Positions 5,870 to 63,192 of a DNA stretch of 64,000 nt are shown in pieces. A program made the translations under genes and the position numbers. Every line of letters begins with the position of its first letter. Within the stretch, counting starts at the first letter, position 1. The stretch covers positions 192,185 through 256,184 of the forward strand of contig DASZZP010000038.1 of NCBI GenBank assembly GCA_035544875.1, read 5' to 3'. The stretch comes from Thermoanaerobaculia bacterium (lineage in GTDB: Bacteria; Acidobacteriota; Thermoanaerobaculia; Multivoradales; UBA5704). Below the pieces are notes generated by a model that was not told where the DNA came from, searched no databases, and worked only from the letters and a program-made list of their open reading frames with translations.

Positions 5870-7039
5870 ATGGTGGATTTTTCGACCGTCAGCCTGCTGA
5901 TCCAGTGGGTCGGCATCCTGGTCATCCTGGGTTTGCTGCTCTTCCTGACCCAGTCGATCCGGCGCCCTTCGCTCGACTACTGGGCCGCGGCCTGGTGTTG
6001 CCTGGCGCTCGCGCTCGCCGCGCTGTACGTCGATGTGGAGTTCCAGCCGCAGTCCCATCTCCTGCGCGTCCCCTATTTCCTCGGCGAGTACGGCTTTGGC
6101 TTCCTGCTGGTCGCCGGCTGCCGCAACTTCGCCTCCGGGCCGGTTTTGACCTGGCGGTCCTTGCGATGGGTGCCGGCCGGCCTGGCCGCGGCGCTCCTGC
6201 TCATCTGGCTGACGCCCGATCTCAACGTCGAGTTCGCCATCCACGCGCCGATCGTGGCCGCCCTCTGCGTTGCCGCCTTCGCCGCCCTGCGCCCGGCGCG
6301 CCGCCTGCAGCGCGGCCCCGGCTTCACCGTCATGTCGGCGGGGCTCCTCCTGCTGGCGATCGACCTCGCCCACAACACGCCGGTGTTCCTGCTCGCGACC
6401 TATCTTGGCAGGACGCGGCGTTTCGCCTATCTGAATTACACCTCGGTCGTCGACCTGATCTTCGAGACCGTCCTCGGTTTCGGCATGGTCATGCTCACCA
6501 TGGAAAGCTTGCGCCAGCAGTCCGAGCAGGCCAACCGCGAGCTGCAGGACGCGCTTGGGCGCCTGGAGGTCCTCGCCAGGACCGATCCCCTGACCAGCGC
6601 CCTCAACCGCCACGCCTACCACAGCTTGCTGGGCAGCCACGATCCGGCGGATCTCGCCGGCAGCGTCGCCGTGGTCGACGTCAATGAGCTCAAGCAGATC
6701 AACGACCGCGACGGGCACCTGGCCGGCGACGTCGCGATCCGTCAGGTCGCGACCGCGATCCGCTCGGTGATCCGCGCCGACGACCTGCTCTTCCGCTGGG
6801 GTGGGGACGAGTTCCTGGTGGTCTTGCGGAGCCTCGACCCCGAGGAGACTCGCCGCCGCTTCGAGTCCGTCAACGCCATCCTCGCCGACTCCCGCCAGCG
6901 GCCCGCCGCGGCTGAGCAGCTCCCGCTCTCGGTCTCCTTCGGCATCGCCCCCTTCGGCGCCGGCGCGACGATCGAGCAGGCCGCCGAAAAGGCCGACAGC
7001 CTGATGTACCTGCGCAAGCGCGGCTCCGGGGAGCGCTGA
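5870..7039 (+). CDS. Membrane-anchored diguanylate cyclase (GGDEF domain)
   Basis: About 6 N-terminal TM helices, then ...VDVNELKQINDRDGHLAGD...RWGGDEFLVVL (GGDEF motif). GAGGA RBS before ATG 5870. Confidence 0.85.
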   Translation: MVDFSTVSLLIQWVGILVILGLLLFLTQSIRRPSLDYWAAAWCCLALALAALYVDVEFQPQSHLLRVPYFLGEYGFGFLLVAGCRNFASGPVLTWRSLRWVPAGLAAALLLIWLTPDLNVEFAIHAPIVAALCVAAFAALRPARRLQRGPGFTVMSAGLLLLAIDLAHNTPVFLLATYLGRTRRFAYLNYTSVVDLIFETVLGFGMVMLTMESLRQQSEQANRELQDALGRLEVLARTDPLTSALNRHAYHSLLGSHDPADLAGSVAVVDVNELKQINDRDGHLAGDVAIRQVATAIRSVIRADDLLFRWGGDEFLVVLRSLDPEETRRRFESVNAILADSRQRPAAAEQLPLSVSFGIAPFGAGATIEQAAEKADSLMYLRKRGSGER

Positions 7040-7044
7040 GGACC

Positions 7045-7130
7045 GACCTCCGGGAAGTGCCGCACGGCCACCACCGGCCGTGCGGCCGACCTCCGGGAAG
7101 TGCCGCACGTCCATAGCCGGACGTGCGGCC
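7045..7130. repeat. Tandem pair of 43-nt REP-like palindromic elements (first locus)
   Basis: Two units gacctccgggaagtgccgcacgNccaNNNccggNcgtgcggcc, each with an 11-bp perfect hairpin stem (gccgcacgNcc / ggNcgtgcggc). They lie between the convergent ends of the GGDEF and HAD genes. A near-identical pair recurs at 48630..48715. Confidence 0.7.
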
Positions 7131-7230
7131 GCGGCGGCGTCAGCCCGCGGGCGCACAGCTAGCCCAGCCAGTTCCCCTTCGGTCAAATTGCGGAGCGGTC
7201 AGTCCGCAGCGTGGTCAGATCGCGAGGCAG

Positions 7231-7875
7231 TCAGCCCGCGGCGCGGTCGACAAGATCGGCGAGCGCCAGCAGATCGCGGACCCGGTGGTCGGCGGGACCC
7301 GGGCGCGCGTGCGGGCGCTCGACGAAGACGGTCGTGAGGCCGAGACGGCGCGCCGCCTCGAGGTCGTAGTCGGTATAGGCCGAGACGTGCCACCAGGCGG
7401 CGGACAGCTGCTCGCCGATCCGCTCCGCGGTGCGGCGCCAGAAACGCTCGTCGGGCTTGTAGAGCCGCAGCTCCTCGGCGCATACCCAGGCGCTCAGCCG
7501 GACCCCGAGCTGAGCCTCCACTTCCTCCCGGTTCACCCGATCGCTGTTGGTCGTGGCCACGCAGGCGGCCTTGCCCAGCAGCCGGCGCAGCGCCGCCGCA
7601 GAGTCGGGAAAGAGCGGCCAGTGGCCGAGGCCGGCGGCGATCTCCTCCGCCGCCGCGCGCGGCAGTCCCACCACCGCCTCCAGGCTGCGCGCCGTGATCT
7701 CGCGATAGCTCAGGTACGCCCGCCCCTCCTCGGCGCCCTGGGCATCGACGATGCGGTCGAAGGTCGACTCGTCCACGTCGGCCCCTTGGCGCGCCAGCGC
7801 CGACAGCAGCCCGCGCCGCCAGTCGACCACCGTGCCGAAGATGTCGAACGAGAGCACTCTCGGCTGCGCGGTCAT
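7231..7875 (-). CDS. HAD-superfamily hydrolase (haloacid dehalogenase-like, subfamily IA)
   Basis: MTAQPRVLSFDIFGTVVDW (DxDxT-type motif I variant) ...VATTNSD...LYKPDERFW. The first ATG is at 7875; the track start 7893 is a TTG. Confidence 0.7.
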   Translation of the reverse strand: MTAQPRVLSFDIFGTVVDWRRGLLSALARQGADVDESTFDRIVDAQGAEEGRAYLSYREITARSLEAVVGLPRAAAEEIAAGLGHWPLFPDSAAALRRLLGKAACVATTNSDRVNREEVEAQLGVRLSAWVCAEELRLYKPDERFWRRTAERIGEQLSAAWWHVSAYTDYDLEAARRLGLTTVFVERPHARPGPADHRVRDLLALADLVDRAAG

Positions 7876-16033: not shown

Positions 16034-17559
16034 GGCGCGGAGTTCCTCTGTTGCTTCCGGCAGGCGAGCGGCGCGGCGACGAAGCTCGCCAGCCGCTCGC
16101 CGCGCTCCAGCACGGCGGCATCGGCGCCGCTCGCGGCGAGCTCGAAGTGCTCGGCGAAGACCGCCCCGACCGGCTCCGCGATCGACGGGTCGAGCCCGCG
16201 CAGGAAATCCGCACGGTAGCCCGGAGCCGGCGGCGCCGTCGCGACCGCGGCGACGCGCCGCCGCAGGCGCACGTAGGCGGCGAACGCGCGCCAGCCGCTG
16301 GGCTGCAGCAGCCGCGCCGGACCTCCCGCGGCCAGGGCCGCCAGCACCCGGCTGGGGGCCGTGGCGGCGAGCGCGCGCACCACCTGGGCATGCAGCCGGG
16401 CGGCCACGATCGCGGCCGGCAGGGCGCCGTTCGCGATCTCCCGCGGCCGCCAGTCGGCCAAGGCGGGGAACAGCGTCACCAGATCGATCCCCATGCGCTC
16501 CGGTCGCTCGCCCAGGGCCAGCAGCGAAAGCGCCACGCGCAGGCACTGAGAGCAGCGACTGCACGCCGCCTCGTTCGCCCCCACCCGCCAGCAGGAGTAC
16601 TGGAGGTCGCAGAGATCGGTATAGCGGGTCCACAGCAGCAGCTGCACCTGCTCGCTGTGCAAGGCGCTGATCAGCGAGCCGTAGCGCAGGCCAAGCGGCG
16701 CGAGCAGCGACTCGATCGACTGCTGCGTGGCGCGCGAGTACATGAAGTGCGGGTGCTGGACGATGCGCCCGTCGAGCTCGACGTTCTCCTGCACCTCCGC
16801 CTCCGCGGCCAGGAACAGGCGGGTGGCGCCGAGCGCAACCGCACACACCAGCAGCGCCGCGAAATAGAGGAACGTGTCGGTGATCTCGTTGACCGCCACC
16901 GGATAGCCGACGAGCGGCGGGAAATCGTTCTTCCAGCTCGTGCGCAGATCGGACTCGACCTCGACCAGCGTGACGTCGCGGCGCGCCGCCATCGCCGCCA
17001 GCACCTGGCGGCGGCGGGCGGTCTGATGGTCGTGCAGCGGCGGCATCGGCGAGGTGGTGGTGACCAGCAGCGGCGCCGCCGTGAAGTCGCACAGGAGCGC
17101 CGCCTGCAGCAGGCTGTCCTTGCCACCGCTGAAGGCGGCGGCGCAGCGCCGGCCGGCGGCCAGGCGCTGGGGCGACGGCAGGCGGGGACCGCGCGCATGG
17201 AGCTCGAACGCCGCCAGTGGGGGCCAGGGCGACGCCGCGGATCTCCCGCTGCGATAGGCCTCGAGCGTCGCCGCCTCGGTCTCGAGCAGGCGGCACCAGA
17301 ACTCCGCCTCACCCGGCGGCAGCTCGACAGGCAGCTCGACGCGGCAAGGGCGCAGCAGGTTCCAGTGCGAGTGCAGGCAGAGCAGCGCCACCGTCCACCA
17401 GAGCGGCTGTGGCAAGCGCGCCAGCTCGACCTCCGCAGGGAACCTGAGCGTGAAGCTGGTGCGGTGATAGAGGTCCGTCTCCGGCTCGACGCGCCAGCGG
17501 AAGGTTGCCGTCCGCCGCTCCGCGTCGAGCGCCGGCGGGGCGAGCGTGATGACGTTCAT
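16030..17559 (-). CDS. PP-loop ATP-pyrophosphatase-family protein with unique ~160-aa N-terminal domain and CxxCxxC tail (possible sugar amidotransferase)
   Basis: AAAFSGGKDSLLQAALL (SGGxDS PP-loop) in the middle of the protein and ...CSRCSQC near the C-terminus. Translationally coupled on both sides (ATGA overlaps at 17559 and 16033). Confidence 0.6.
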   Translation of the reverse strand: MNVITLAPPALDAERRTATFRWRVEPETDLYHRTSFTLRFPAEVELARLPQPLWWTVALLCLHSHWNLLRPCRVELPVELPPGEAEFWCRLLETEAATLEAYRSGRSAASPWPPLAAFELHARGPRLPSPQRLAAGRRCAAAFSGGKDSLLQAALLCDFTAAPLLVTTTSPMPPLHDHQTARRRQVLAAMAARRDVTLVEVESDLRTSWKNDFPPLVGYPVAVNEITDTFLYFAALLVCAVALGATRLFLAAEAEVQENVELDGRIVQHPHFMYSRATQQSIESLLAPLGLRYGSLISALHSEQVQLLLWTRYTDLCDLQYSCWRVGANEAACSRCSQCLRVALSLLALGERPERMGIDLVTLFPALADWRPREIANGALPAAIVAARLHAQVVRALAATAPSRVLAALAAGGPARLLQPSGWRAFAAYVRLRRRVAAVATAPPAPGYRADFLRGLDPSIAEPVGAVFAEHFELAASGADAAVLERGERLASFVAAPLACRKQQRNSAP

Positions 17560-19661
17560 CGGCTCCTACCCGGCAGGCGAGAGAGGGCGGCGCCCAGGGC
17601 GCGGCGCGCGGACCAGTAAGCATGGGCGCCCCGCCACCAGCGGGAGTCGTGGATGGCGGCGAGCTCCCGGCGGGCCTGCCGCAGCCGCTCTTCGGCGGCG
17701 GCCAGCTCGGCACCGGTCGCCGCGAGCTCCCGGCCGGCCTGCCGCAACCGCTCTTCGGCGGCGGCCAGCTCGGCCTCAGGTCCGACGCCGGCCCGCAACA
17801 GCGGCGCGAGGCCGCCGTTGAGCCAGTTGAGCAGCGCCCAGTCGGTGCCTTTGGCCGCGATCAGCTCGAGCAGCAGCCGCGCTGCGGCAACGTCCTGCCG
17901 TCCGCCGCTGGCCAGCTCCGGCGCGAAGGCGAAGACGGTGTCGAGGACGCGGCCATGCAGCTGATGGAAGCGGGCGGCCGCGGCGAGGAAAGGGAGCGCG
18001 TCGCCGACGCCCACCAGTCCGCAACCGAGGCGCCCCTTCTCCTGCTGCTGATGCAGCGCCAGCGCCTCGACCGAGCGGCGCAGCGAACCCGGCCGCCAGG
18101 CATCGAGCCGGTAGCACCACTCGTTGTCTTCGAAGTAGGCCATCTCCACTTCCAGCGGCAAGGTGGCGAACGCCGACCAGCGCGCCAGGAGCAGCGCCCC
18201 GCTCACCCACCGGCACGGGCCGGAGCTCCCCAGCCCGGGGTCGTCGAAGCGCAGGCCGCGGCCGAGCGGCGCGAGGGTGAGGACAGCGCCGTCCTCGCGG
18301 TAGTCGCCCCCGCAAAGCTGTACCCGCCCGTCGGGGAGGACGATGGTGCCGCCGCAGGCGATGGCGGCGGAGTCGCTGTCGAGGACCTGCGCGAGGTGCT
18401 CGAGCGTGCCGGGAAGGACCTCGATGTCGTTGTCGATGAACAATACGTACTCGGTCGTGGCCCGTTCGACGCCGAGCTGCCGGCCGCCGGCACAACCCAG
18501 GTTGCGGTCGAGCTCGACGAGCTCGGCGCCGTGAGCCCGGCAGGACCGGCGCACGGCATCCCTGGCCGCCGCGGGCGAGTTGTTGTCGATCACCAGCAGA
18601 TGACAGGGAAGGCGCGCGAAGCGGCGCAGCGCGGCCAGCGCGGCCTCCGTGTGCGAGGCTCGGTTCCACGACAACATCACCACCGTGACCCGGGGCTCGC
18701 CGCCGCCCGCGAGCAGGCTGGCCGGCAGCGGGGCGAGGTTCGCCTCGGCATGGGCGACCAGCTCGCGGCGCAGGGCGTCCAGCGATCCTTCTTCGAGTGC
18801 GGCGCCGGCCGCGGGCGCCGCCTCCCGCACCCCGGGTCGTCGCACCTCGCGTTCGGGCGGCGCGGCGGACACCTCGAAGTCGGCGAGCGCGAACTCGGCG
18901 ATGGCCGGCAGTTTGTGGTAGGCGGAGGCGCGATACTGCACGGCCTTCCCCAGCAGTGCCGCGGCGATCATCACGTGAGCGCGGTCGGTGCGCACCAGCG
19001 CGGCGCCCGCGATGCGCGCCAGCCACTCCGGCAGAGCCTCGCAGACGTCCGAGATATCCACGTTGTCAGGCGGCAGGGCGAAGCTCGAGCTCGACTCGCG
19101 GTCGGTGCGATAGGCGTGCAGCACTCCGTCGCCGGCCCGTGCGAAGGGGGTGAAATCGAAGAAGAACGCGCAGTCGTGTGCGAGGCGCGCGTCGCAGAGG
19201 CCGCGGATCTGGCGCCAGGACTCCCGCTCGCGTGCGAAGACCAGGGCGCGGCTGCGCGACAGCGCGTCGCGCACGGCCTCTTCGGCGGGCTCGAAGGAGG
19301 AAGGCAAGATCACGACGCGGGCGAAACGCATCTCGGCCAGCGCCAGCACGCGCGGCATGATTTCGTGGTAGACGCGGCACCAGGCGCCTCCGCCCGAGAT
19401 CACCGCCAGCTCGCCGCTTGCCCCGGCGACCTCCTCGAAGCCGATCTCCCGGTAGTCGAGGCCGGCGAGCAGCCGTCTGGTGCCGGCCTGGATCAGCTCG
19501 TCGCCGCGATTGCCGACGCCGCGGACATAGGTGAAGCCGGCGGCGCCGCCGATCGCCGCCAGCAGCTGGCGCCGGCTCCGCTCGAGGCGCCGCCGATGGC
19601 TGGACGGCGGCGCGAAGGGCTGCGGCTCGGCGGCGGCGGGTGACGCCTCGCCCCGGCTCAC
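17556..19661 (-). CDS. Fusion protein: polysaccharide pyruvyl transferase-like domain + GT2 glycosyltransferase + C-terminal coiled-coil repeats
   Basis: N-terminus ...YVRGVGNRGDELIQAG (PS_pyruv_trans-like). Middle: VTVVMLSWNRASHTEAAL...LLVIDNNS...DNDIEV (GT2 DxD). C-terminus: ELAAAEERLRQAGRELAA repeated, from a 63-nt tandem DNA repeat. Start assigned to the GTG at 19661 (RBS GGTGAGG), which is conserved with the decayed paralog's start. Confidence 0.65.
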   Translation of the reverse strand: MSRGEASPAAAEPQPFAPPSSHRRRLERSRRQLLAAIGGAAGFTYVRGVGNRGDELIQAGTRRLLAGLDYREIGFEEVAGASGELAVISGGGAWCRVYHEIMPRVLALAEMRFARVVILPSSFEPAEEAVRDALSRSRALVFARERESWRQIRGLCDARLAHDCAFFFDFTPFARAGDGVLHAYRTDRESSSSFALPPDNVDISDVCEALPEWLARIAGAALVRTDRAHVMIAAALLGKAVQYRASAYHKLPAIAEFALADFEVSAAPPEREVRRPGVREAAPAAGAALEEGSLDALRRELVAHAEANLAPLPASLLAGGGEPRVTVVMLSWNRASHTEAALAALRRFARLPCHLLVIDNNSPAAARDAVRRSCRAHGAELVELDRNLGCAGGRQLGVERATTEYVLFIDNDIEVLPGTLEHLAQVLDSDSAAIACGGTIVLPDGRVQLCGGDYREDGAVLTLAPLGRGLRFDDPGLGSSGPCRWVSGALLLARWSAFATLPLEVEMAYFEDNEWCYRLDAWRPGSLRRSVEALALHQQQEKGRLGCGLVGVGDALPFLAAAARFHQLHGRVLDTVFAFAPELASGGRQDVAAARLLLELIAAKGTDWALLNWLNGGLAPLLRAGVGPEAELAAAEERLRQAGRELAATGAELAAAEERLRQARRELAAIHDSRWWRGAHAYWSARRALGAALSRLPGRSR

Positions 19662-20749: not shown

Positions 20750-21517
20750 CTACCATGAGCTGAGGACGACCACCTCGAGGTCGCGGCGGGGAGCGATCTC
20801 CGCCAGCACCTGCCGGCGGCGCGGCGTCACGTGGTCGCTGAGCGGGTGCATCGGCGAGGTGGTGGTCACCAGCACCGCCGGCAGTCCCAGCTCGGCGAGC
20901 AGCGCGGCCTGGAGCAGGCTGTCCTTGCCACCGCTGAAGGCCGCCGCACAGCGCCCCGCCTCGGCCAGCGGCGCCGGCCCGAGCAGCGGCGGCCCGTCGT
21001 CCAGCAGCTCGATCGAGCTCGCGCCGCCGGGGCCGCGCCCGGAGGCGCCGGCCGGCGCCTCCGCTAGGCCGCCACCGGGCTCACTCGCGGCGCCGCCCGC
21101 GGGCCGCTCCGCGCCGCCGCCTCGACGGTAGGCCCCGAGCGTCGTCAGCTCGCGCGCCAGCAGCCGGAGCCAAAACTCGCGGTGCCCGGGCTCGAGACCG
21201 ACCGGCAGCCGCACGGAGCAGGGGCGCAGGAGCGTCCAGTGCGAGTGCAGGCAGAGCAGCGCCACGGTCCACCAGAAGCCTTCAGGCAACCGGCGGCCGT
21301 CGAGGCCGGCAGGCAAACGCAAGCCGAAGGAGTGCGCGCTGTAGAGCGGTGTCGCAGGCTCGATCTGCCAGCGAAACCAGGCGCCCGCGCAGCTCACCTC
21401 CGGCGGATGGAGAACGATCCGGTGCATGGTCGGCGTCACCCGGGCGGCCGTCGCGCGCGGCCGCCCAGCCGCGCGGCGGCACGGCGCGAGCGCCAGTAGA
21501 GGTCGGCGACCCGCCAC
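20750..21517 (-). pseudogene. Truncated paralog of the PP-loop gene (N-terminal 250 aa only, ends in a premature stop)
   Basis: Protein aligns along its length to residues 1-260 of the 16030..17559 product (FRWRVEPxT..., WWTVALLCLHSHW, AAAFSGGKDSLLQAALL, LVTTTSPM) and then stops at LSSW*. Confidence 0.6.
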
Positions 21518-22511
21518 TACAGCGAGCCGTGGTCGGCGGCCAGCTCCCGCCGCAGGGCCGCCAACTCGGCCTGCGCCGCCGCCCGCTCTTGCTGCGTCGC
21601 GGCGAGCTCGCCCTGCGCCGTCGCCAGCTCACCTCGAGCCGGGCCGAGCGCCCCGCGCGCCTCGTGGAGCTCGGCCAGCAGCCCGCTCCGAAACAGCGGC
21701 GCCAGGCCGCCGCGCGTCCACTCCGTCGCCAGCCACGCTGGGCCGCGGGCGGCGAGCAGCTTGAGCAGTAGCCGCGCCCCGGCCGCGTCGCGGCCGCCAC
21801 CCGCCGAGAGCTCGGGAGCGAACACGAAGACCCCTTCGAGCACGCGCCCGTGCACGCGGTAGAAGTGGGGCAATCGCCTACAGGTAGGGAGCGATCGGCT
21901 GACCTCGGCCGCAACCTCAGGGGGCCCTTTGACGTCCAGCCCCCGTCCCAGGGGCTCGAAATGCAGCACCCCGTCGGGCTGCTCCCAGAAATCGCCGCCG
22001 CAGACAGTGCTGCGGCCGATCGCGCGTCAGCACGACTAAGGTCAAACGCGGTTCGCCGCCGCCCGACAGCAGTTCTGGCCTCAACAGCTCCAGGTTGCGC
22101 CGCGCGCGGGCGAGCAGCCGTTCGCGCGGCGGCGTCGGTGCCGGGGGAAGCGGCGGAGACGGCGCCGGCGGCACCGCCATCCCCGCCGGCAGCGGCCGGG
22201 CGAGCCGCCGGACGTCAAAACCGCCCAAGACGTACTCGGCGATCGCCGGCAGCTTGTGATAGGACGAGATGCGGTATGCCACCGTAGCCCACAGCCACTC
22301 GTCGAGAGAGCAGCAGCGGACGGAGAGGTCGATGCCGCCGGCGGGCGCCGGCGTAGATCAGCTCGTCGCCCAGATTGCCGGCGCCGCGCACGAATGTCAG
22401 GTCCGAAGGGTCGCCGATCGCTGCCAGTAGCCGCCGCCGGTTGTCCTCGATGCTGCCGGCGGGGGCCCTCGACCCCGGCTCCGGCGCCGCGGCCGGGTGC
22501 TCCGCGCTCAC
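21517..22511 (-). pseudogene. Decayed paralog of the pyruvyl-transferase::GT2 fusion gene (three out-of-frame fragments with internal deletions)
   Basis: ORF fragments 22215..22511, 21917..22282 and 21517..21969 align respectively to the N-terminus (RRRLLAAIG...FVRGAGNLGDELI), the middle (YHKLPAIAEYxLxxFxV...LSGGGEPRxTxVxL) and the C-terminus (HGRVLxxVFxFAPEL...coiled-coil) of the 17556..19661 product. Most of the catalytic domains are missing. Confidence 0.6.
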
Positions 22512-24910: not shown

Positions 24911-27900
24911 TCAACGCTCTGCCTTGAGCGCCGGCACCAGCGGCACCCGGAGCGCGCTGGCCGCGGCGACGGCGCTCGCCAGCATGCCGGCCAGCAGCAC
25001 GGCGGCCAGGGTCGCGGTCAGGGAGCGCCATGGCAATCCCCCGGCCAGTCCCGCGCCGAGCGCCTCCGGCAGCAGTCCGGCGGCGGTTCCCAGCGCCACC
25101 CCGAGTGCGAGCAGGGCCGCGTTCTCGAGCAGCAGCAGGCCGGCCAGCTGGTGCCTGCGGAAACCGAAGGCGCGAAGCGCCGCGAGCTCCCAGCGCCGCT
25201 CGACCACGTTGCGCAGCAGCACCACCGCGAGACCGCAGGTGCCGAGCAGCAGGCCGAGGCTGCCCAGGGCCTGGAAGCTCGCGAGGTAGGTCTCCTCCAC
25301 CTTGGCGTAGAGGCGCAGCCGCTCGGCAACCGGCACCACCTCGAATCCGAAGTCGCGCAGCTGGTCGCCGAGCAGGCCGGCGACGGCGTTTTCCCGCCCG
25401 CGAGCCGTGCGCACCAGGAAAAAGCTGCGCCCGCCATGGCGCGGGAAGTGGCGCGCCAGCTCTTTCTCCGGGATCAGCAGCGCGTCCTGCAAGGGGCTGC
25501 CGGCGAGCAGGCCGACGATGCGCAGCCGCACCGGCTCGCCGCGCTCGCCGGCCAGGCTCAGCTCGTCGCCGACCCCGAGATGGAGGATCCAGCGCACCGA
25601 CTGCTCGTCGCCGAGCGCCGGTACCACCTCGGACCCCGCTCCGCCAGCGCGCGCCGCGGAGCGCGCCTTGGCGAAGAGGTCCGCCAGGCTCCCCTCCCCC
25701 GCGGCCATCGCGAAGGTTCGGCGCGCCAGGAGAGGCGGCACGCCCAGCAGCCGCGGCCGCCGCGGCTGGTAGAGGTTGAGACAGCTCGCGTCGTCGCCCG
25801 GCACCGCCGGCAGGCCGACGATCTCGCCGCCGGCGAGCAGCCGCTCGGCCGGCTCGGGAAAGCCGAGCGCGCGGCGCCCGTCGCTCCGGCCGAGGTCGTG
25901 GTAGAGAGGGGTCGCGGACTCGGCGAGCAGTGTGAATCCTCCCCACTCCCGCCCCTCCCCCGCCGCGCCAGCGCGGCGGTTGGCCGCCACCAGCACCAGC
26001 ACGAAGCAGGCGCAGGCCACCAGGGCGACCGCGAGCACGCTGCGGCCCGGGTTGGCGGCGGTGTTGCGGACCCCCAGGATCATCAGGCCGCCGCCGGGCG
26101 ACTCCCGCTCGCCGACCGCCAGGCACCAGAGCGCGAAGGCGCTGACGCCGGCCGCGAGCAGACTGGCGCCGCTGCCGAAGGCGAGGGCCGGCGCGCCGCC
26201 CCCAGCGGCACGGAGAGCCACGGCCAGCACGACGCCGGCGGCGCCCGCGGCGAGGCCAACCGCCCGCCACCAGGGCCGGCGGCGCTCGCCGCGCCCCGCC
26301 GTCACGGCGCCGGCCAGCAGTTGCGCCACCGGCAGCCGGCCCATCCGGCGCACGCCGGCGGCGAGGAAGACGAGCACCGTGACGACGCTCCCCAGCCAGC
26401 CCCAGACGAAGGTCGAGGGGCTGGCCGCAAACGCGAGCCGCGGCGCGCCCGCCCCCGCTTGCAAACCGCCGAGCAGCGGCAAGGCGAAGGCGCCCGCGCC
26501 TGGGAGACCGAGCAGCGCGCCGGCGCCGGCTAGCACCAGCCCTTCGCCCAGGAAGCGGCGCCGCACCGCGCCGGCCGGGTAGCCCAGGGCCAGCAGCAGG
26601 CCGACCTCGCGCGCCCGGCGCTCGAGCCCGAGAGTGAAGAGCAGACCGGTCACCAGCGCCGCGGAGACGATCAGGAACGAGCTGAAGCTGACGAACAGCG
26701 AGCTGAAGTCGGTGCCCTCGGCGGCCGACCGCAGCCCCTCGGCGCGCACCGGGCGCAGGGCGAGGCCGAACGCCGCGGGCCGCAGGCGCGCCAGGAGGAG
26801 CGGCTCGAAACGCGCGGCGAAGGCGGCGGCGCTTTCACCCGCCGGGCAGCTGAGGCGCAGCGAGGTGAGGTCGCCGAAGCGGGTGTGCCAAAGCCGGCGG
26901 CCGGCGGCGAGGCTCACGAAGGCCTTGGGAGTGGGCCCGAAGCGCTGCCAGTATGCCTCGTCGCGCGGCCGCACCCGGTGGAGATCGACCGGAAAGGGCG
27001 GCGACCACGAGGCCATGTCGCGCGCCTGGTCGATGCCGGGGAAGGCAGGGGTCAGGCCGCGGTCCGCCGCCAGTCCGGCGAGAGCCACCACGCCGCGCAC
27101 CCTGAAGCTGGCGCTGGCGGTGGCGAGCGGCGCTCCGGCGCTGCCGCTGTCGGGCAGGAAGTAGCTCATCGCGACCCTGTCGCCGGGCCGCGCCGCGAGA
27201 TCCTCCGCCGCCCAGCTGTCGAGCAGGATGTCGTCGCCCTCGGGCAGCGCCGCCGGCTCACCGCTCGCCAGGAGCAGCTCGCCGGCGCCCAGGTCGGCTT
27301 TCGACCGAGGTACGTCAGGGGTGGTTTTCACAGCCTTCAAGCCGGTGGGAGGAGTCCCGGCCCCCCCGGCGAGCCAGCGCCTGGCAGGCCGCCTTCCGAC
27401 CGAGGTCCCAGAACGGCGGCGATCCTCTTCGCTCCATTCAAGCCGGTGGGAGGAGTCCCGGCCTCCCTGGCGAGTCAGCGCCTGGCGGGTCGCCTTCCGA
27501 CCGAGGTCCGCGAGCCGCCACTCCAAACCCCCATAGCGTCTTGCCTCACCCGCCCCACCAGCGAGCGGACCTCGGTCGGAAGGCGACCCGCGAGGCGCCC
27601 CCCGGCCATTCGCGAGCCCGGGACGGAGGGGTCCCACTGCGCTCACCATCGAGTAGGGAACGGCGCGCCCGTGGGCGGCGAGCTCGATCGCCAGGTAGGT
27701 CAGGACCGGCTGCGCCGCCGAGCCCAGCTCGACGGCGGCCGCCGCGGCGCCCTCCGCCACCGCCGGCGGCAGGAAGAACTCGCCGCTCTCGAGCGCGAGG
27801 CAGGCGGCGCCGCCGGCCGCGCCGAGCGGGCGCAGGGCAAGGCCGATGTCGTCGAGCCGCAGGCCAGCGGCAAGCGCCTTCTCCGCCCCCTGCGCCCTCA

Positions 27901-39149: not shown

Positions 39150-40378
39150 GATGCGCCGTCTCCCTTTCCCGGTCTCGCCGCAAAGCAGTAGAGCGTGCCG
39201 TCGAGCGTGCCGACCACCAGCCGGCCGCCGGCGATCGCCGGCGAGGCCTCGATCGCCGCGCCGGCGGCGAACTGCCAGACCGGCTTGCCGGTGCGGTCGT
39301 CGAGGGCGAAGATGTCGCCGCTGCGCGCCGCCGCGACCGCGAGGCCACCGACCAGCACGGGCGAGGAGTCGACCGCGGCGCGGGCGGCGAAGGTCCAGAG
39401 CTCCTCGCCGGTGCGCGGCGACAGCGCGTGCACCAGCTTATCGCGGCCGCCCACCACCAGCAGGTCGTCGCGCACCGCCGCTGAGGAGTAGTACGGAAAC
39501 TTGAGCCGCGAGTTCTCGTAGCGCCACGCCACCCTGCCGGAACGCAGGTCGACCGCCACCAGCTGGTTCTCGAAAGTGCCGACGAACGCCCGCCCCAGGG
39601 CGACCGCCGGGCTGGCGCCGAGATAGCCGCCGAGGGCGACCTTCCAGACCTCGGCGCCGTTGCGCGCCCGCAGCCGCCGCAGGTTGCCGTCGCAGCCGGC
39701 GATCAGCACCGCGTCGCCTGAGACCGCGGGCGTGGCATTGACGTAGCCCCCGGTCTCCCGGCTCCAGCGCCGCGCGCCGTCGGCCGCGGACAGGCAGTAG
39801 ACGCTGCGGTCGTAGGAGCCGAAGAGCACGCAGCCGGCGGCAAAATTGGCCGCCGAGACGATCTCGGCGCCGGTGCGGAAGCTCCAGCGGCGCCGCCCGG
39901 TGGCGGCGTCGATGGCGTGGAAGACTCCATGCCCGTCGCCGAAGTAGACGACGCCGTCGCGCACCGCCGGCGAGGAGCGAATAGGACCCTCGGCGCGATA
40001 CTTGAAACGCAGCGCGCCGCTGTCCAGGCTGAGGGCGTATAGATTGCCGTCGAGCGAACCGACGTAGGCGCTGCCGTGCCAGATCGCCGCCGTCGAGGCG
40101 ATGCCGGCGCCCGCCTTGAACGTCCACACGGGGGCGAGCTCCCGGCCGAGAGCGCCAGCGGCGCGCCCGGTGAGCTCGGGATCGCCGCGGAACAGGGCCC
40201 AGGCGGCGCCGGCCGCCTCGCCCGCTGCTTTGCCTGCCGCTGTGCAAGCCGCCTTGCCTGCCGTTTTGGAAGACGCTTTGCCTCCAACACCCGCCGCGGC
40301 ATCGACCCCTGTCGCCGCCAGCCGCAGGCAGGCCAGCGCGAGCAGCGCGGCGGTTGCGGGACGTGGGCGAGGTCGCAT
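39146..40378 (-). CDS. Secreted PQQ-like beta-propeller repeat protein 2
   Basis: Signal peptide MRPRPRPATAALLALACLRLAATG. Repeats ...GNLYALSLDSGALRFKY, VFHAIDAATGRRRWSF, VYCLSAADGARRWS, LVAVDLRSGRVAWRY, IFALDDRTGKPVWQF. Confidence 0.75.
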   Translation of the reverse strand: MRPRPRPATAALLALACLRLAATGVDAAAGVGGKASSKTAGKAACTAAGKAAGEAAGAAWALFRGDPELTGRAAGALGRELAPVWTFKAGAGIASTAAIWHGSAYVGSLDGNLYALSLDSGALRFKYRAEGPIRSSPAVRDGVVYFGDGHGVFHAIDAATGRRRWSFRTGAEIVSAANFAAGCVLFGSYDRSVYCLSAADGARRWSRETGGYVNATPAVSGDAVLIAGCDGNLRRLRARNGAEVWKVALGGYLGASPAVALGRAFVGTFENQLVAVDLRSGRVAWRYENSRLKFPYYSSAAVRDDLLVVGGRDKLVHALSPRTGEELWTFAARAAVDSSPVLVGGLAVAAARSGDIFALDDRTGKPVWQFAAGAAIEASPAIAGGRLVVGTLDGTLYCFAARPGKGDGAS

Positions 40379-40422
40379 GGCGCAATGGGTCTGGCGTGCG
40401 GGTCTTGCCGTCGTCACGGGAT

Positions 40423-41727
40423 TCAGTAGGCCTGCTGGTAGAGCCACAGCAAATCGGCTTCGCCGACCAGCCGCGGGTTGAAGCGGGCGGTCCACTGCCG
40501 CGCCGCCTCGCACGCCAGCTCCTCCAGGGCCGCCGCCTCGACGCCGACCTCGCGCAGGCGCGCCGGTAGACCGGCGGCGGCGCGCAGCGCCTCGATCCTC
40601 GCCGCCAGCTCCTCTCCCCCGGCGTATGGGCCGAGCCCGGGGTAGCCGCCGGTGTCTAGAGTCGGCGGAGTCGGCGGAGTCGGGGGAGTCGGCGGTGTCA
40701 GAGTCGTGGCCGGCGGCCGGGCGCTGTTGAAGCGCACCACGTGCGGCAGCAGCAGGGCGACCGCGGCGCCGTGCACGATGCCGTAGCGGGCGGTGAGCGG
40801 GTTGGCGCAGGCGTGCGCCGCCCCCAGCATCGAGACCTCGATTGCCGCGCCGGCGAGATGGGCGCCGAGCAGCATGGCGCCGCTGGCGCCGGCATCCTCC
40901 GGCGCCGCGAACGCGCGCTCGAGGCTCGGCTCGAGCAGCCGCCAGGCCTCGCGCGACAGCATCCGCGACACCGGGTTGGCGCGCCGGCATACCAGACTCT
41001 CGACGGCATGCGAGAGGGCGTCGAGCCCGGCTGCCGCCGCCACCCGGCGCGGTGCGCTCCCGACCAAGGCCGGATCCAGGACCACGATGCGGAAACGCGC
41101 CTTGCGGTCGCCGCAGGCCATCTTCTGGTGGCTCTCCTCCTGCGAGATCAGGGCGTAGGACTGCGCCTCGCTGCCGGTGCCGGCAGTGGTGGGAACGCCG
41201 ATCGCCGGCAGCATCGGCCGCCGGGCGCGGCCAAAGCCCTGGTAGTCCTCCATGCGGCCGCCGTTGGTGAGCAGGAAGTTGATCCCCTTGGCGCAGTCCA
41301 TGGCGCTGCCGCCGCCGAGGCCCACCAGCAGGTCGGCGCCCCACTCTGCTGCGGCGTCGCGGCCGGCCTCCACCTGCCGCGTCGTGGGGTTCTCGCCCAC
41401 CCCGTCGAAGACCCGCGCCGCCACCTCCGCCGCGCCCAGGACGACCGCGGCGCGCTCGACGTGGCCCGCGGCGCGCACCCCGGGGTCGCTGACCAGCAGC
41501 GCACGGCGGCCGCCGAGCTCGCGCGCCAGCTCGCCCAGGGCCGCCACCGCGCCGTGGCCGAAGAGCACGTCGATGCCGCCCACCTCGGCCCGCCACTCGG
41601 CTGCCCGCCACTCCGCCGCCGCGGGCGGCGTCCGGGAGCCGGGATCGGTGCTGGGTTCGCTGGCTGCGCCGGCGTCGCTGGCGCCGCCGGCTCCACTGGC
41701 TACGCTGCCTCTGAACACCGCGCTCAT
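40423..41727 (-). CDS. Iron-containing (group III) alcohol dehydrogenase
   Basis: ...LVGLGGGSAMDCAKGINFLL...GVPTTAGTGSE...LDALSHAVES... Contains an inserted PPTPPTPPTPPT stretch from a 9-nt tandem DNA repeat. ATG at 41727 overlaps the LuxC-like stop (ATGA). Confidence 0.8.
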   Translation of the reverse strand: MSAVFRGSVASGAGGASDAGAASEPSTDPGSRTPPAAAEWRAAEWRAEVGGIDVLFGHGAVAALGELARELGGRRALLVSDPGVRAAGHVERAAVVLGAAEVAARVFDGVGENPTTRQVEAGRDAAAEWGADLLVGLGGGSAMDCAKGINFLLTNGGRMEDYQGFGRARRPMLPAIGVPTTAGTGSEAQSYALISQEESHQKMACGDRKARFRIVVLDPALVGSAPRRVAAAAGLDALSHAVESLVCRRANPVSRMLSREAWRLLEPSLERAFAAPEDAGASGAMLLGAHLAGAAIEVSMLGAAHACANPLTARYGIVHGAAVALLLPHVVRFNSARPPATTLTPPTPPTPPTPPTLDTGGYPGLGPYAGGEELAARIEALRAAAGLPARLREVGVEAAALEELACEAARQWTARFNPRLVGEADLLWLYQQAY

Positions 41728-43361
41728 CGGCCCTCGCCCTCCGGCGCCGACACGAGCGCCGGCGGCTGAGGCAGCGGCGCCGGGGGCGCCGCCAGGCCGG
41801 GGCCCAGGCCGGCCACGCGCAGCGCGCGGCGGCGGTAGAGCAGGTCGAAGAGGTTGCCTTCGTGCGGCTGGGCAAAGGAGACCTGCCAGGTCGGCACGGC
41901 GCCCAGGTGCAGGTGATCGACGTCGCGGCAGGCGAGCAGCTCGCCGCGCAGCTCCTCGTCCGCGGTCAGGACGGTCGCCACTAGCGTCGGACCGAGGCGC
42001 GCCGGCAGCTCGGCGCGCGGTACTTCGACCACCGCGCCGAACGGGAAGAGCAGCTCGGCGCGGGCCAGCGGGTGGTCGGCATCGCGCACCCAGATCAGGG
42101 TCGGCAGCAAGAAGGTGCAGCCGTCGACCTCAACCACGCGCCCGCCACTCCGATCGCCGCGCGCCGCGGCGGTCAGGTCTTCGGCCTCCCCCGGGGCCAG
42201 CCGGCGATCGATCCACTCCGAGATGCGGCGCGCCGCCGCGGGGTCGGGCCACGCCGCCAGCTCTGCGCGCGGGTCGTCGAGCGGACGCGCCTCGACCGCG
42301 GCCAGGCGCCGCGCCAGCGCCTCGGCGAATTCGCGCGCCGGCGTGGAGCGGCCACCGCGCGCCGGGCCGGCGCCGCTGGCGGCCTGGGCGCCGTCAACGG
42401 CTTCCAGCCAGACCCCCGAGGCGTTGATGCACGAGCGGCCGCCATTGGCGAGCAGCGAGCTCGCCACCAGCTCGAGGTGGGAAGGCCACTCGGCGAGCTG
42501 GTCGGCACCCATGATCACCTTGCTGAAACCCGGCCCATGGACCTCGATCCGCCGGTCGCCGCGCCACGGGCTGACCGTCGCCGCGTCGCCAAATAGCAGC
42601 GAGCGGCCGCAGCGCAGCAGGATCTCGGCGGCGCCGGCGTGGTCGGTGGGATAGAACGAGAGCGCCGCCGGCGGGCAGCCCGCCGCCGCCAGGGCGCGCA
42701 GCAGGCGCAGTGGGGTCCAGGGCTCGTCGCGCCCCGGCTTGAGCGCCAACCCGACACCCAGCGCCGGCGCGGCCAGCCACAGCCCATGCACCCCCGGCGA
42801 GTTGCTCGGCAGCACGGCGCCCAGGGTGTCGGCGAGGCGCTGGAAGTGCGCGCCGCCGGCGTCGCGCTCCGGAGCCGAGGAATCGAGGGCGGCGGCCGGC
42901 AGGCCGCGCGTCAGCCCGGCAACCACCTCTTCCATCCCGGCGAGCGTGGCGCGCAGCTTCTCGAGGTTGGCGCGCGCCAGGGTCAGCGGCAGGCCGGTGG
43001 TGGCCGAGACGTCGCGCAGGTAGTCGGCGGGCGCCTGCGTCTCGCCGTCAAAGCCGACCGCCAGCTCGCCTTCGGCGAACAGCGCCGCCGCCCGGCGGCA
43101 GATCGCCAGCCGCTCGCCGAGCGGCAGCGCACCCAGGGGCGCCGCCAGCCGGCTCTCGCGGCTCTCGGGTACGCGCGCCGCCGCGGCGGCCGGAGCAAGG
43201 CTCGCGCCCAGATCGCGGGCGATCAGGGCGGCATTGGCCTGGCTCACCTCGGCCACCAGCTCGCCGCTGCGCAGATCGCGCAGCCGCGCCACCTCGGCGC
43301 TGCGATAGGCGGCGCCGCCGCGCAGCACCGGCAGGTGCAAGGCCACCGGCCGCCGCGCCAT
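41724..43361 (-). CDS. LuxC-like acyl-CoA reductase / aldehyde-dehydrogenase-superfamily protein
   Basis: ...LPSNSPGVHGLWLAAPALGVGLALKPGRDEP... and the catalytic region ...LANGGRSCINASGVW (conserved Cys). 545 aa. ATG at 43361 overlaps the stop of the adenylating-enzyme gene (ATGA). Confidence 0.55.
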   Translation of the reverse strand: MARRPVALHLPVLRGGAAYRSAEVARLRDLRSGELVAEVSQANAALIARDLGASLAPAAAAARVPESRESRLAAPLGALPLGERLAICRRAAALFAEGELAVGFDGETQAPADYLRDVSATTGLPLTLARANLEKLRATLAGMEEVVAGLTRGLPAAALDSSAPERDAGGAHFQRLADTLGAVLPSNSPGVHGLWLAAPALGVGLALKPGRDEPWTPLRLLRALAAAGCPPAALSFYPTDHAGAAEILLRCGRSLLFGDAATVSPWRGDRRIEVHGPGFSKVIMGADQLAEWPSHLELVASSLLANGGRSCINASGVWLEAVDGAQAASGAGPARGGRSTPAREFAEALARRLAAVEARPLDDPRAELAAWPDPAAARRISEWIDRRLAPGEAEDLTAAARGDRSGGRVVEVDGCTFLLPTLIWVRDADHPLARAELLFPFGAVVEVPRAELPARLGPTLVATVLTADEELRGELLACRDVDHLHLGAVPTWQVSFAQPHEGNLFDLLYRRRALRVAGLGPGLAAPPAPLPQPPALVSAPEGEGR

Positions 43362-44502
43362 CAGTACACCCCGACCACCACCGAGCTGGCGAGCGCCTCG
43401 AGCAGGCGCACGTTGCGCACCCCGTCCCACGGGAACCCGGCGACCGGGGCGGCGCGCTCGGCCTGGTCGCGCTCGAGGAAGCGCGGCATGAAAAACTCGC
43501 GCGTCAGGGTGGTGAGCATCACCTGTCCGGTTTCGCCGTACTCCACCCGCCGCTCGGGATCGTCGGGATCCACCAGCTCGAGCACGGCGCGCGGTTGCGG
43601 CGCGTAGTAGGTGATGGCCCAGCGCGACTCGGGCGGCTCGGGCGACTCGGAGACGCCGCCGCCGGCGCCGTCCGCCGCGCCCGCCCCCCCGGGGGCGGGA
43701 CAGGCGAGCCCCATCAACGTGTTGCCGTAGACCGGGTAGAAGACGACGCCCGGGATCAGCTCCTCGCGCGCGAAGCGGTGGAACTGCGGGCTCATCTCGG
43801 TGCCGCCGCAGAAGACGCCGCGGATGCCCAGCCGCGGCAGCGCGACCCGCTCGGCAAGCGCGGCGAGCAGCTTCGGCGTGGTGAACAGGCAGCGGATGCT
43901 CTCGTGCGCCCGCAGCAGCTTGAGCCCCTGCTCGACGACGTGGCGCTTGTAGGCCTCGAGCTCCCGCGGCCGGCCGTCCCTGATCAGCTCGTTGACCCAG
44001 CGCGGATCGAGGTCGACCAGGAAGCAGATGCCGCCGCGGTGCTGGGCCAGGTGCTCGATCGCCAGGCGCAAGCGGCGCGGCCCGGTCGGCCCCAGCATCA
44101 GCCAGTCGGCGCCGCGCGGGAAGCCGTCCTCCGGGAGGCGCTCGCTCAGCTGCTCGTAGTCGATGCGGAAGTCCTCGATGTTGATGCGCGACTTCGGCAG
44201 GCCGGTCGAGCCGCCGGTCTCGAACACCGCGATCGGGCGGTCGGCCAGGGCGCGCGGCACCCAGCGCCGGATCGGACCGCCGCGCAGCCACTCGTCCTCG
44301 AAGTGGCCCAGCCGCCGCAGGTCGTCGTAGCCGCCGATCTCGCGCCGCGGATCGAAGTCGAGGCGTCGGGCGTAGTCGAGCCAGAACGGCGAGCCGGTCG
44401 CGGGGTCGAAGTGCCAGCGCACGACCTCGCGCACGTGCTCGTCGAGCCGCTCGCGGGCAGCCCTCACCGCCGCGGCCAACGAGCTCTCGAGGATGGCGGT
44501 CA
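43361..44502 (-). CDS. LuxE/PaaK-like adenylate-forming enzyme (acyl-protein synthetase / phenylacetate-CoA-ligase fold)
   Basis: AMP-binding P-loop FETGGSTGLPKSR, ...VFCGGTEMSP..., about 380 aa. No in-frame ATG is available, so a TTG start at 44502 (RBS GGAGAG) is proposed. Start is uncertain. Confidence 0.5.
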
Positions 44503-44577
44503 AGATCTTCTCTCCGGCGTCGTAGCCCGCTCGTCCTGCCCGCTCGTCCTGCCCGGTCGTCCTGCCAAGAGCCTCCG

Positions 44578-46233: not shown

Positions 46234-46237
46234 CGCG

Positions 46238-48484: not shown

Positions 48485-48513
48485 CGTTCGAGTCCTCACC
48501 GCCAGTGCTGATC

Positions 48514-48778
48514 CCGAGGGATGAACGGCACTGCGATGCGGCAGTGGAGGCCTACTCGAAGCATCCATCGGATCGCCACCCGCATCCCCCGCGAGTCCCC
48601 TTCCCGGTTGTCGGAAGCCGCCGGGTCCCGACCTCCGGGAAGTGCCGCACGTCCATCACCGGACGTGCGGCCGACTTCCGAGGAGTGCCGCCCGGCCATA
48701 GCCGGACGGGCGGCCTGCCCGGGGGCGCCGGGGGGGAAGGGGACGCCCCCTCCCCCTCACAGCGGGGAGTTTCGTCTT
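48514..48778. repeat. Copy A of a ~150-nt repeated intergenic element carrying a nested REP pair
   Basis: Shares the ccgagggatgaaNggcNctgcgatNNggcNgtggaggcctactcgaagcatcNatcgg...ccccttccc core, a G-rich palindrome (gggggaaggggacgccccctcccc) and a tcgtctt tail with 63045..63192. A REP pair (48630..48715) is inserted between the core and the palindrome. Confidence 0.65.
48630..48715. repeat. Tandem pair of 43-nt REP-like palindromic elements (second locus, nested inside the larger repeat)
   Basis: gacctccgggaagtgccgcacgtccatcaccggacgtgcggcc followed by a diverged unit whose changes largely preserve the stem, though the right arm has one mismatch (ggacgggcggc where ggccgggcggc is needed). Confidence 0.7.
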
Positions 48779-49042
48779 ACCGCACGCCGCGCCATCCTGC
48801 CTCCCCCGGCGCACGCCAGCCTGCGGCTGAGCATACATCGACCTGCCGGAATCGGCTATCACCCTCCCCCTTCAGCAATGGTGTTGAAGGAAGCGCTGCC
48901 AAGAATGTCCTCCCCTGGCACTGGGTCATTCTAAAGTGACCCCGTACCCCTCCCCCTGCAGCGCGACCACGAGCGCGTAGACTGCTGGTTTCGGACTCAC
49001 CGGCGATTCAGCCGGCCGGAAGCTGGGTGAGGAGGATTCCCG

Positions 49043-52501: not shown

Positions 52502-53130
52502 CGCTCCGCCGCCGGCCCCGCGGCCGGATCTCCGGCCCCCCTTCGCTCCGCCTCGAAGGCAGCGATCGCCGCCTCTTGGCCGAGCAGGAACTCGAGCTCG
52601 TCGAGCCCCGACAGCAGGCAGTGGCGGGCGAAGCTATCGATCGCGAAGGCGGCCGGCGCGCCGCCGCCGAGGGTGAGGGTCTGCGCCGCCAGATCGAGCG
52701 TCACCTCGCCGCCGGGCTCGGCGAGCAGGCGGGCATGGGCCGCGGCATCCACCTCGACCGCCAGCAGACCGTTCTGGAGGGCGTTGCGGCGGAAGATGTC
52801 GGCCAGCGATCGGGCGAGCACCGCGGCGAAGCCGAAGTCCTGCAGCGCCCAGACCGCGTGCTCCCGCGACGAGCCGCAGCCGAAGTTGCGCCCGGCGATC
52901 AGGATGCGCGCCCCGGCCGCCCCCGGCTGGTCGAGCGGCGAGTCGGGGCGCGGCCCGCCCTGGGCGTCGTAGCGCCAGTCGGCAAAGAGCTTCGTCCCCA
53001 GCCCGTCGCGGGTGGTGACCGTCAGGAAGCGGGCCGGGATGATCTGATCGGTATCCACGTTGTCGGCCGCCAGCACCAGGGTGCGCGAGCGCAGGGTGTG
53101 GAGCGGCTCGCGCCGCACGATTGATTGCAT
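52498..53130 (-). CDS. leuD: 3-isopropylmalate dehydratase small subunit
   Basis: ...VLAADNVDTDQIIPARFL...ILIAGRNFGCGSSREHAVWALQDFGF... (aconitase swivel domain). Confidence 0.9.
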   Translation of the reverse strand: MQSIVRREPLHTLRSRTLVLAADNVDTDQIIPARFLTVTTRDGLGTKLFADWRYDAQGGPRPDSPLDQPGAAGARILIAGRNFGCGSSREHAVWALQDFGFAAVLARSLADIFRRNALQNGLLAVEVDAAAHARLLAEPGGEVTLDLAAQTLTLGGGAPAAFAIDSFARHCLLSGLDELEFLLGQEAAIAAFEAERRGAGDPAAGPAAER

Positions 53131-63022: not shown

Positions 63023-63044
63023 GGTCCCACCGACGGTGCCGTTA

Positions 63045-63192
63045 CCGAGGGATGAAAGGCGCTGCGATATGGCGGTGGAGGCCTACTCGAAGCATCGATC
63101 GGGTCTCCCCCCGCAACCCCTCGATCCCCTTCCCACCCCTCCGGGGGGGAAGGGGACGCCCCCTCCCCTGCGCACGGACCAATCTCGTCTTT
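63045..63192. repeat. Copy B of the ~150-nt repeated intergenic element (no REP insertion)
   Basis: About 85% identical to the core of 48514..48778, including the G-rich palindrome ggggggaaggggacgccccctcccc at 63149..63172. Lies 53 nt upstream of the lipoprotein gene start. Confidence 0.65.

What the first reader, a model, noticed from the sequence alone, without database searches (positions are those of the whole stretch)
7045..7130. 43-nt REP-like palindromic element present as tandem pairs at two distant loci
Seen in sequence: the unit gacctccgggaagtgccgcacgtccatNNccggacgtgcggcc, with an 11-bp perfect stem, occurs twice at 7045..7130 and twice at 48630..48715 (about 41 kb away). Substitutions in the diverged unit largely preserve the stem, leaving one mismatch. 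Both loci are intergenic.

Inference: a mobile REP/BIME-like family, possibly mobilised by a RAYT transposase elsewhere in the genome.
Basis: seen in the sequence. Interest (0 to 1): 0.5.

Follow-up and report, generated by a model that had tools for sequence, protein, structure and literature searches.

The report
Paired hairpin repeat at two loci
An 86-base pair of GC-rich hairpins sits in two intergenic gaps 41 kb apart in an uncultured Thermoanaerobaculia (Acidobacteriota) genome; it is an ordinary REP-like interspersed repeat, and nothing ties it to a RAYT transposase.

Summary
Four 43-nt units, all on the + strand, form two head-to-tail pairs at 7045-7130 and 48630-48715. Shuffled sequence gives none. 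Each unit is a 14-nt near-palindromic linker followed by an 11-bp hairpin with a 6-nt loop.

New points:
- Loop sequences depend on position in the pair (first units AYCACC, second units ATAGCC), so the 86-nt pair was probably copied as one piece.
- At locus 2 the pair lies in 122 nt that replace 6 nt of a paralogous ~170-nt element at 63023-63190. The replaced 6 nt sit in the loop of a hairpin that is intact there. This suggests insertion.
- Independent short-read contigs stop exactly 30 nt (k-1) into locus 1 from both sides, yet the window shares no 30-mer. This points to further copies or array-length variants.

No other copy was found in the window, in relatives or in public collections, and the source genome could not be searched. 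The element has no GTAG or CGTC tag, is not in inverted (REPIN) arrangement, and none of 30 window ORFs scanned is a transposase.

Verdict: a lineage-specific REP-like repeat, a new member of a known kind. RAYT mobilisation is unsupported and untested. Interest is low to moderate.

The parts
7045..7087 (+). Unit 1, first unit of pair 1. Loop ACCACC; stem carries a compensated G-C in place of T-A.
7088..7130 (+). Unit 2, second unit of pair 1. Canonical stem, loop ATAGCC.
48630..48672 (+). Unit 3, first unit of pair 2. Canonical stem, loop ATCACC.
48673..48715 (+). Unit 4, second unit of pair 2. Loop ATAGCC, one compensated pair, one G.A mismatch and three linker changes that keep the linker mini-palindrome.
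48606..48727 (+). 122-nt segment (24 nt, then the 86-nt pair, then 12 nt) that stands where the paralogous element at 63 kb has 6 nt. Candidate inserted segment.
   Evidence: the 24-nt and 12-nt flanks are not derived from the repeat
48596..48605 (+). Left arm TCCCCTTCCC of the host hairpin. In this copy it is separated from its partner by the extra segment.
48734..48743 (+). Right arm GGGAAGGGGA of the host hairpin.
63125..63156 (+). The same hairpin intact in the paralogous copy, which acts as an 'empty site'. It forms a 10+3-bp stem, and the 6 nt ACCCCT (63135-63140) stand where the 122 nt are at locus 2.
48490..48780 (+). Host repeat: a ~170-nt intergenic element, here interrupted by the pair. 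It ends in a terminator-like hairpin on the + strand at 48750-48779.
   Evidence: (D12)
63023..63190 (+). Uninterrupted paralogue of the host repeat. It starts right after the stop codon of the DUF2911 gene.

Best explanation
This is a lineage-specific REP-like interspersed repeat of an uncultured Thermoanaerobaculia genome. Its unit of dispersal is an 86-nt head-to-tail heterodimer: unit A with loop AYCACC followed by unit B with loop ATAGCC. Each unit is a 13-nt mini-palindrome linker plus an 11-bp GC-rich hairpin. The pair was copied at the DNA level into intergenic sites, in one case into the loop of a hairpin belonging to another intergenic repeat. It now forms very stable double hairpins in transcripts from either strand, so it can act as a transcript 3'-end barrier or terminator-like element. 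Shown: the repeat itself, its structure, the position-specific loops and the indel relative to a paralogue. Inferred: that the indel is an insertion, that more copies exist, and any RNA-level effect. The enzyme that copies it is unknown.
For: The four units are far beyond chance. Both pairs have identical boundaries, CC|GACC...GCGGCC, with unrelated flanks. Loops are position-specific: units 1 and 3 have AYCACC and units 2 and 4 have ATAGCC. The stems are kept through two double, compensated substitutions. At locus 2, 122 nt containing the pair replace 6 nt in the loop of a hairpin that is intact in the paralogue at 63125-63156; the flanking blocks match at about 85% and at 28/28. Independent Logan contigs of the same sample end at 7072 and 7102. 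These are exactly the points where the last 30-mer becomes 'CC + unit' or 'unit + G'. No 30-mer is shared among the window's own units, which is the signature of a graph branch caused by other copies or longer arrays. The placements match published REP behaviour: between convergent genes close to stop codons, and inside palindromic targets (PMC3733652). The genome carries other intergenic hairpin repeats.
Against: Only two loci were actually seen. They differ at 9 of 86 positions, so neither is a recent copy of the other. No copy was found in any public collection or in the nearest relatives, which are only 67% identical in the neighbouring protein. A search with the translated repeat found nothing. 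There is no target-site duplication. No transposase was found among the 30 window ORFs scanned. The indel relative to the paralogue could be a deletion. The contig breaks could reflect array-length variation at the same locus rather than other loci. The tool's shuffle control for covariation is weak (58 of 500 shuffles reach the observed value), and compensated changes in palindromes can also arise by templated mutation without selection.
Confidence: 0.6

Rival explanations
1. It is a classical REP/REPIN/BIME family mobilised in trans by a single-copy RAYT (Y1 HUH transposase) encoded elsewhere in the genome.
For: The element is a short GC-rich extragenic palindrome occurring as dimers, and its hairpins are kept by compensated changes, as expected if a structure-specific enzyme recognises it. 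Acidobacteria do encode RAYT-like tyrosine transposases (TIRYTs), some with repeat families (PMC3733652).
Against: No GTAG tag is adjacent to the stem; the flanking bases are AAGT and CGAC. The dimers are head-to-tail, a type that is absent or rare in REP families, whereas REPINs are inverted pairs. No Y1_Tnp domain was found among the 30 window ORFs scanned. Whether a RAYT is flanked by these units elsewhere could not be tested.
Confidence: 0.15
2. It is a one-off event: a single ectopic duplication or gene conversion placed the 86 nt at a second site. There is no family and no ongoing mobility.
For: Only two loci are seen in 64 kb and none in any collection. The 10% divergence between the pairs suggests an old, inactive event.
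Against: Short-read contigs break at exactly k-1 depth on both sides of locus 1 although the window shares no 30-mer. The boundaries are precise with unrelated flanks. A possibly related tandem hairpin pair in another Acidobacteria MAG carries the same linker.
Confidence: 0.15
3. It is a host-selected cis-acting element: either a bidirectional terminator or RNA-stability hairpin, or an array of palindromic protein-binding sites spaced 43 bp apart that co-regulates the flanking genes. On this reading it is not mobile DNA.
For: The hairpins are strong on both strands (-23 to -29.5 kcal/mol). Locus 1 starts 6 nt after the GGDEF stop codon, between convergent genes. Both the linker and the stem are palindromic, as sites for dimeric proteins are.
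Against: Locus 2 lies between divergent genes, where a terminator has no obvious role for either. There is no T-run after the stems. There is no Rfam match. The flanking genes are functionally unrelated. This reading does not explain the identical 86-nt boundaries or the indel relative to the paralogue.
Confidence: 0.1

Closest known systems
REP elements (GTAG and CGTC superfamilies) and their dimers, as catalogued in PMC3733652
   Same: Short (28-nt) GC-rich extragenic palindrome with an unpaired conserved flank. It occurs as dimers, lies close to stop codons of convergent genes, and has one copy inside a palindromic target, as reported for T. roseum GTAG-23 and A. variabilis GTAG-15.
   Different: It has no GTAG or CGTC tag. 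The dimers are head-to-tail, which is rare or absent in those families. The copy number is unknown, and no associated tyrosine transposase has been seen.
REPINs and E. coli BIMEs (own knowledge, and abstracts listed)
   Same: The unit that disperses appears to be a pair of hairpins with a conserved linker, not a single hairpin.
   Different: REPINs and BIMEs pair the hairpins in inverted or alternating orientation so that they form one long hairpin. Here the two units are direct repeats with a 43-nt period.
Mycobacterial interspersed repetitive units (MIRU/VNTR) (own knowledge)
   Same: Direct tandem repeats of 40-100 nt, present as short arrays at several intergenic loci. The contig breaks hint at array-length variation.
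   Different: MIRUs are not dominated by a strong hairpin, and this element is unrelated to them in sequence.
TIR repeat families associated with TIRYT genes in Acidobacteria, such as Koribacter versatilis ORF1552 (PMC3733652)
   Same: Same phylum, and non-GTAG repeats that can be self-complementary and organised as dimers or clusters.
   Different: The shared GGGGWSAS motif is absent here, and the association with a TIRYT gene could not be examined.

Membership tests
REP, GTAG superfamily (RAYT-associated) | Palindrome of 20-40 bp with a 5-13 bp stem | tested here: met
   11-bp stem and 6-nt loop, 28 nt in total
REP, GTAG superfamily (RAYT-associated) | Unpaired GTAG tag at one end of the palindrome | tested here: not met
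   Bases flanking the stem are AAGT (5') and CGAC (3'), or GTCG and ACTT on the other strand
REP, GTAG superfamily (RAYT-associated) | A RAYT gene flanked by the same repeats (REPtron) | not testable with these tools
   No Y1 transposase among 30 window ORFs scanned. The rest of the MAG is not in any searchable collection.
REP, GTAG superfamily (RAYT-associated) | Tens to thousands of copies per genome | not testable with these tools
   Two loci in 64 kb. Contig breaks give indirect evidence for more copies or variants.
REP, CGTC superfamily | Terminal CGTC (or TGTC/CCTC) tag, 8-9 bp stem starting with A-T pairs, 4-5 nt loop | tested here: not met
   The stem is 11 bp and starts G-C, the loop is 6 nt, and there is no CGTC next to the stem (criteria)
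REPIN / BIME | Two REPs in inverted or alternating orientation | tested here: not met
   All four units are on the + strand, head-to-tail with a 43-nt period. Minus-strand model hits only reflect the palindromic stem.
MIRU-like interspersed minisatellite | Direct tandem units of 40-100 nt at several intergenic loci | tested here: met
   43-nt units, two per locus, at two loci
MIRU-like interspersed minisatellite | Copy number varies between strains | tested here: inconclusive
   The contig break points fit a longer-array variant in the same sample but do not prove one
Any Rfam RNA family | Score at or above the family's gathering threshold | tested here: not met
   No hit in the whole window. 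The best local hit was livK at 21.6 bits against a threshold of 65.

The most novel reading that the evidence does not exclude
This is a so far undescribed class of Acidobacteriota hairpin repeats defined by a conserved linker, (GAC)CTCCGRGRAGTGCCGC, rather than by the hairpin. It would spread as head-to-tail hairpin pairs into the loops of existing intergenic hairpins, using an enzyme other than a RAYT. The hint is a tandem hairpin pair in an unrelated Acidobacteria MAG (L002 2605-2675, also between convergent genes). It carries 21 of 22 linker bases of unit 4 but a completely different hairpin.
Probability: 0.15. Interest if true: 0.55.

Novelty: new member of a known kind. Interest (0 to 1): 0.25.

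Why it matters
REP-like repeats are well studied in Proteobacteria but hardly at all in Acidobacteriota. A family that lacks the GTAG tag and travels as a direct pair would add a data point on how such repeats spread without a recognisable RAYT. On a practical level, these repeats fragment short-read assemblies of this lineage at predictable points. On present evidence it is an ordinary repeat family in a new host.

Tried and rejected
- **Public collection scans.** I scanned genome contigs, metagenome contigs and viral contigs with GACYTCCGRGRAGTGCCGCNCGNCC. This returned five chance hits inside genes, one doubtful relative (L002) and no viral hit.
- **Plasmids.** BLAST of the pair against plasmids gave no match.
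- **Translated repeat.** A protein search with all reading frames of the repeat, meant to catch ORFs called across other copies, gave no hit at E <= 1.
- **Relatives.** The covariance model found nothing convincing in relatives' contigs. The L011 hit (21 bits) has only a 5-bp stem and was rejected on inspection. Synteny downstream of the GGDEF gene is not conserved in relatives, so no orthologous empty site was available.
- **Decayed partial units.** I tested whether the extra 24-nt and 12-nt flanks at locus 2 are degenerate partial units. They are not (shuffle p about 0.9).
- **Neighbouring gene at locus 2.** The PQQ-propeller protein is not on record in the contig index, so the break points around locus 2 could not be examined from that side. 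Contig L008 starts 35 nt beyond the pair and is uninformative.
- **Suspected 16-nt periodicity.** A periodicity I suspected downstream of the HAD gene (7150-7240) was not confirmed by TRF.
- **Other classes.** CRISPR was rejected on anatomy (no spacers). attC sites, iterons and ECF promoters were considered only from own knowledge and not tested. Rfam was searched and gave no match.

Full report
**Observation.** Four 43-nt units lie on the + strand at 7045-7087, 7088-7130, 48630-48672 and 48673-48715. A hairpin pattern and a 19-nt linker pattern each match four times with up to 3 mismatches, against 0.00 and 0.08 expected from dinucleotide shuffles. TRF reports period 43 with 2.0-2.1 copies at both places. 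The unit is GACCTCCGGGAAGT, then stem GCCGCACGTCC, a 6-nt loop, stem GGACGTGCGGC, and a final C. Each unit folds at -23.6 to -27.8 kcal/mol as + strand RNA and at -23 to -29.5 kcal/mol as - strand RNA, well below shuffles for most units.

Two units are diverged, not one. Unit 1 carries T23>G with A34>C. Unit 4 carries A20>C with T37>G, plus an uncompensated T23>G that gives a G.A mismatch. The tool's shuffle control is weak with only four sequences (58 of 500 shuffles reach the observed value). By simple counting, two of two stem changes in unit 1 and two of three in unit 4 fall on partner positions with complementary bases, which is unlikely by chance (roughly 1 in 1,000; my estimate). Templated mutation within palindromes could produce this without selection (own knowledge).

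The 13-nt core of the linker, ACCTCCGGGAAGT, is itself a 5-bp mini-palindrome. The three linker changes in unit 4 keep it.

**Context and source.** Locus 1 begins 6 nt after the stop codon of a GGDEF gene (5870-7039 +) and lies 100 nt from the end of a convergent HAD hydrolase gene (7231-7875 -). Locus 2 lies between divergent genes: a PQQ-propeller gene (46238-48466 -) and an unknown gene (49043-49837 +).

The proteins match NCBI entries of a 'MAG TPA: Thermoanaerobaculia bacterium' on a 350,704-bp contig, and Logan contigs of run SRR12277194. The window is 71.6% G+C. It is ordinary chromosome: glycosyltransferases, leuABCD, a TonB receptor and ADOP permeases. None of the 30 ORFs scanned against Pfam is a transposase. 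Rfam has no match.

**Is it a family?** This could not be tested directly. The source genome is not in the searchable genome or metagenome collections. Pattern scans returned only chance hits inside genes plus L002. The viral scan returned nothing and plasmids gave no match. The nearest relative of the neighbouring GGDEF protein is only 67% identical. Its contigs are not syntenic downstream and carry no copy. A model built from the four units finds nothing else in the window. A protein search with the translated repeat found nothing.

Three indirect observations bear on the question.

1. *The pair was copied as a whole.* Both pairs start at CC|GACC and end at GCGGCC, and the flanks are unrelated. 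The loops are position-specific: first units have ACCACC or ATCACC, and second units both have ATAGCC. The pairs differ at 9 of 86 positions, so the copying is not recent.

2. *Locus 2 looks like an insertion.* The stretch 48490-48780 is a paralogue of a ~170-nt intergenic element at 63023-63190. The two align at about 85% up to TCCCCTTCCC (48596-48605 and 63125-63134). They align again, 28 of 28, from CCGGGGGGGAAGGGGACGCCCCCTCCCC (48728-48755 and 63141-63168). Between these blocks the 63 kb copy has 6 nt and locus 2 has 122 nt: 24 nt, the 86-nt pair, then 12 nt. In the 63 kb copy the two blocks form a 10+3-bp hairpin, and the 6 nt lie in its loop. An insertion into a hairpin loop is the simpler reading, and it matches published cases of REPs sitting inside palindromic targets (PMC3733652). 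A deletion in the other copy cannot be excluded.

3. *An independent short-read assembly breaks at the repeat.* Logan contig L007 ends at window position 7072 and L009 ends at 7102. The final 30-mers are 'CC + unit 1 bases 1-28' and 'unit 2 bases 15-43 + G'. A k=31 graph would branch exactly there if a unit-1-type unit is preceded by another unit somewhere in the sample, and a unit-2-type unit is followed by one. No 30-mer is shared among the window's own units. The branch therefore needs other copies, or a longer array at the same locus in a co-existing strain.

**Comparison with known families.** The element behaves like a REP: a short extragenic palindrome, found as dimers, close to stop codons and nested in a palindromic target. 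It fails the defining features of the RAYT-associated GTAG superfamily and of the CGTC superfamily. There is no tag next to the stem, and the stem and loop dimensions differ from CGTC elements. [quoted passage not shown] In architecture it also resembles MIRU-type interspersed minisatellites (own knowledge). Acidobacteria encode RAYT-like TIRYT transposases with their own repeat families, so a tyrosine transposase remains possible. It is untested here.

**A possible distant relative.** L002, from an Acidobacteria MAG (JANLHE010000032), carries a 40-nt head-to-tail hairpin pair between convergent genes. Its linker, GACCTCCGAGGAGTGCCGCCCG, matches unit 4 at 21 of 22 bases, while its hairpin (GTCCCGGGC-TGAA-GCCCGGGAC) is unrelated. 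About one chance hit to the pattern is expected in GC-rich genomes (my estimate), and two independent hits inside genes were indeed seen. The match alone is therefore not significant. Its position inside another tandem hairpin pair is suggestive only.

**Verdict.** The feature is real and more than chance. It is best explained as a lineage-specific REP-like interspersed repeat that spreads as an 86-nt direct hairpin pair (confidence about 0.6). The RAYT idea is neither supported nor refuted (about 0.15). It is a new member of a known kind, of low to moderate interest.

Noticed in passing
window 48490-48780, 63023-63190, and inverted partial copy 59928-59967: A second intergenic repeat family of about 170 nt. 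It has a 40-nt core, AGGTCCCACCGNCGGTGCCGNTNCCGAGGGATGAA, containing two small palindromes. The two long copies also share a G-rich hairpin, and the 48 kb copy ends in a terminator-like site on the + strand (48750-48779). The 63 kb copy starts right at the stop codon of a DUF2911 gene. The 59.9 kb partial copy overlaps the 3' end of a DAHP-synthase-like gene. No Rfam match. It could be a small RNA, a 3'UTR element or a MITE-like repeat.
   Followed up: partly
window 53125-53198: A 33-nt head-to-tail hairpin repeat (TGCCGCGGGTCCCAACCCGCGGCGAGGGTTGGA, 2.2 copies, 95% identical) fills the leuC-leuD intergenic gap inside the leu operon. It has the same linker-plus-hairpin architecture as the finding but an unrelated sequence.
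   Followed up: partly
window 27312-27600: A cluster of repeats: a 101-nt tandem duplication plus a 34-nt inverted copy (27478-27511 against 27565-27598, 97% complementary) of a motif containing GGACCTCGGTCGGAAGGCGACC. It lies in an open but non-protein-like stretch that is probably the upstream region of an ADOP/FtsX permease gene. The motif loosely resembles the linker of the finding (GACCTC...GGAAG).
   Followed up: no
L002 2605-2675 (Acidobacteria MAG JANLHE010000032): A 40-nt head-to-tail hairpin pair between convergent genes. Its linker matches unit 4 of the finding at 21 of 22 bases and its hairpin is different. It is either a distant relative or a coincidence.
   Followed up: partly
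L010 19467-19527 (JGI contig Ga0599136_0000082, nearest relative): A 32-nt tandem hairpin repeat (TGGGGGAAGGGCCCCCCACATCAAATAGATCC, 1.9 copies) lies between two genes of an efflux operon. Head-to-tail hairpin pairs in short intergenic gaps may be a recurring feature of this clade.
   Followed up: no
window 16962-17402 against 20767-21276, and 19469-19588 against 22334-22453: Diverged duplicated segments (73-79% identical) about 3.8 kb and 2.9 kb apart, within the polysaccharide gene cluster. They are probably paralogous genes.
   Followed up: no
window 39200-47750: Many weak direct repeats (families D1, D2 and D4). They are the blade motifs of at least two adjacent PQQ-like beta-propeller genes; this is ordinary protein-repeat signal.
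   Followed up: partly
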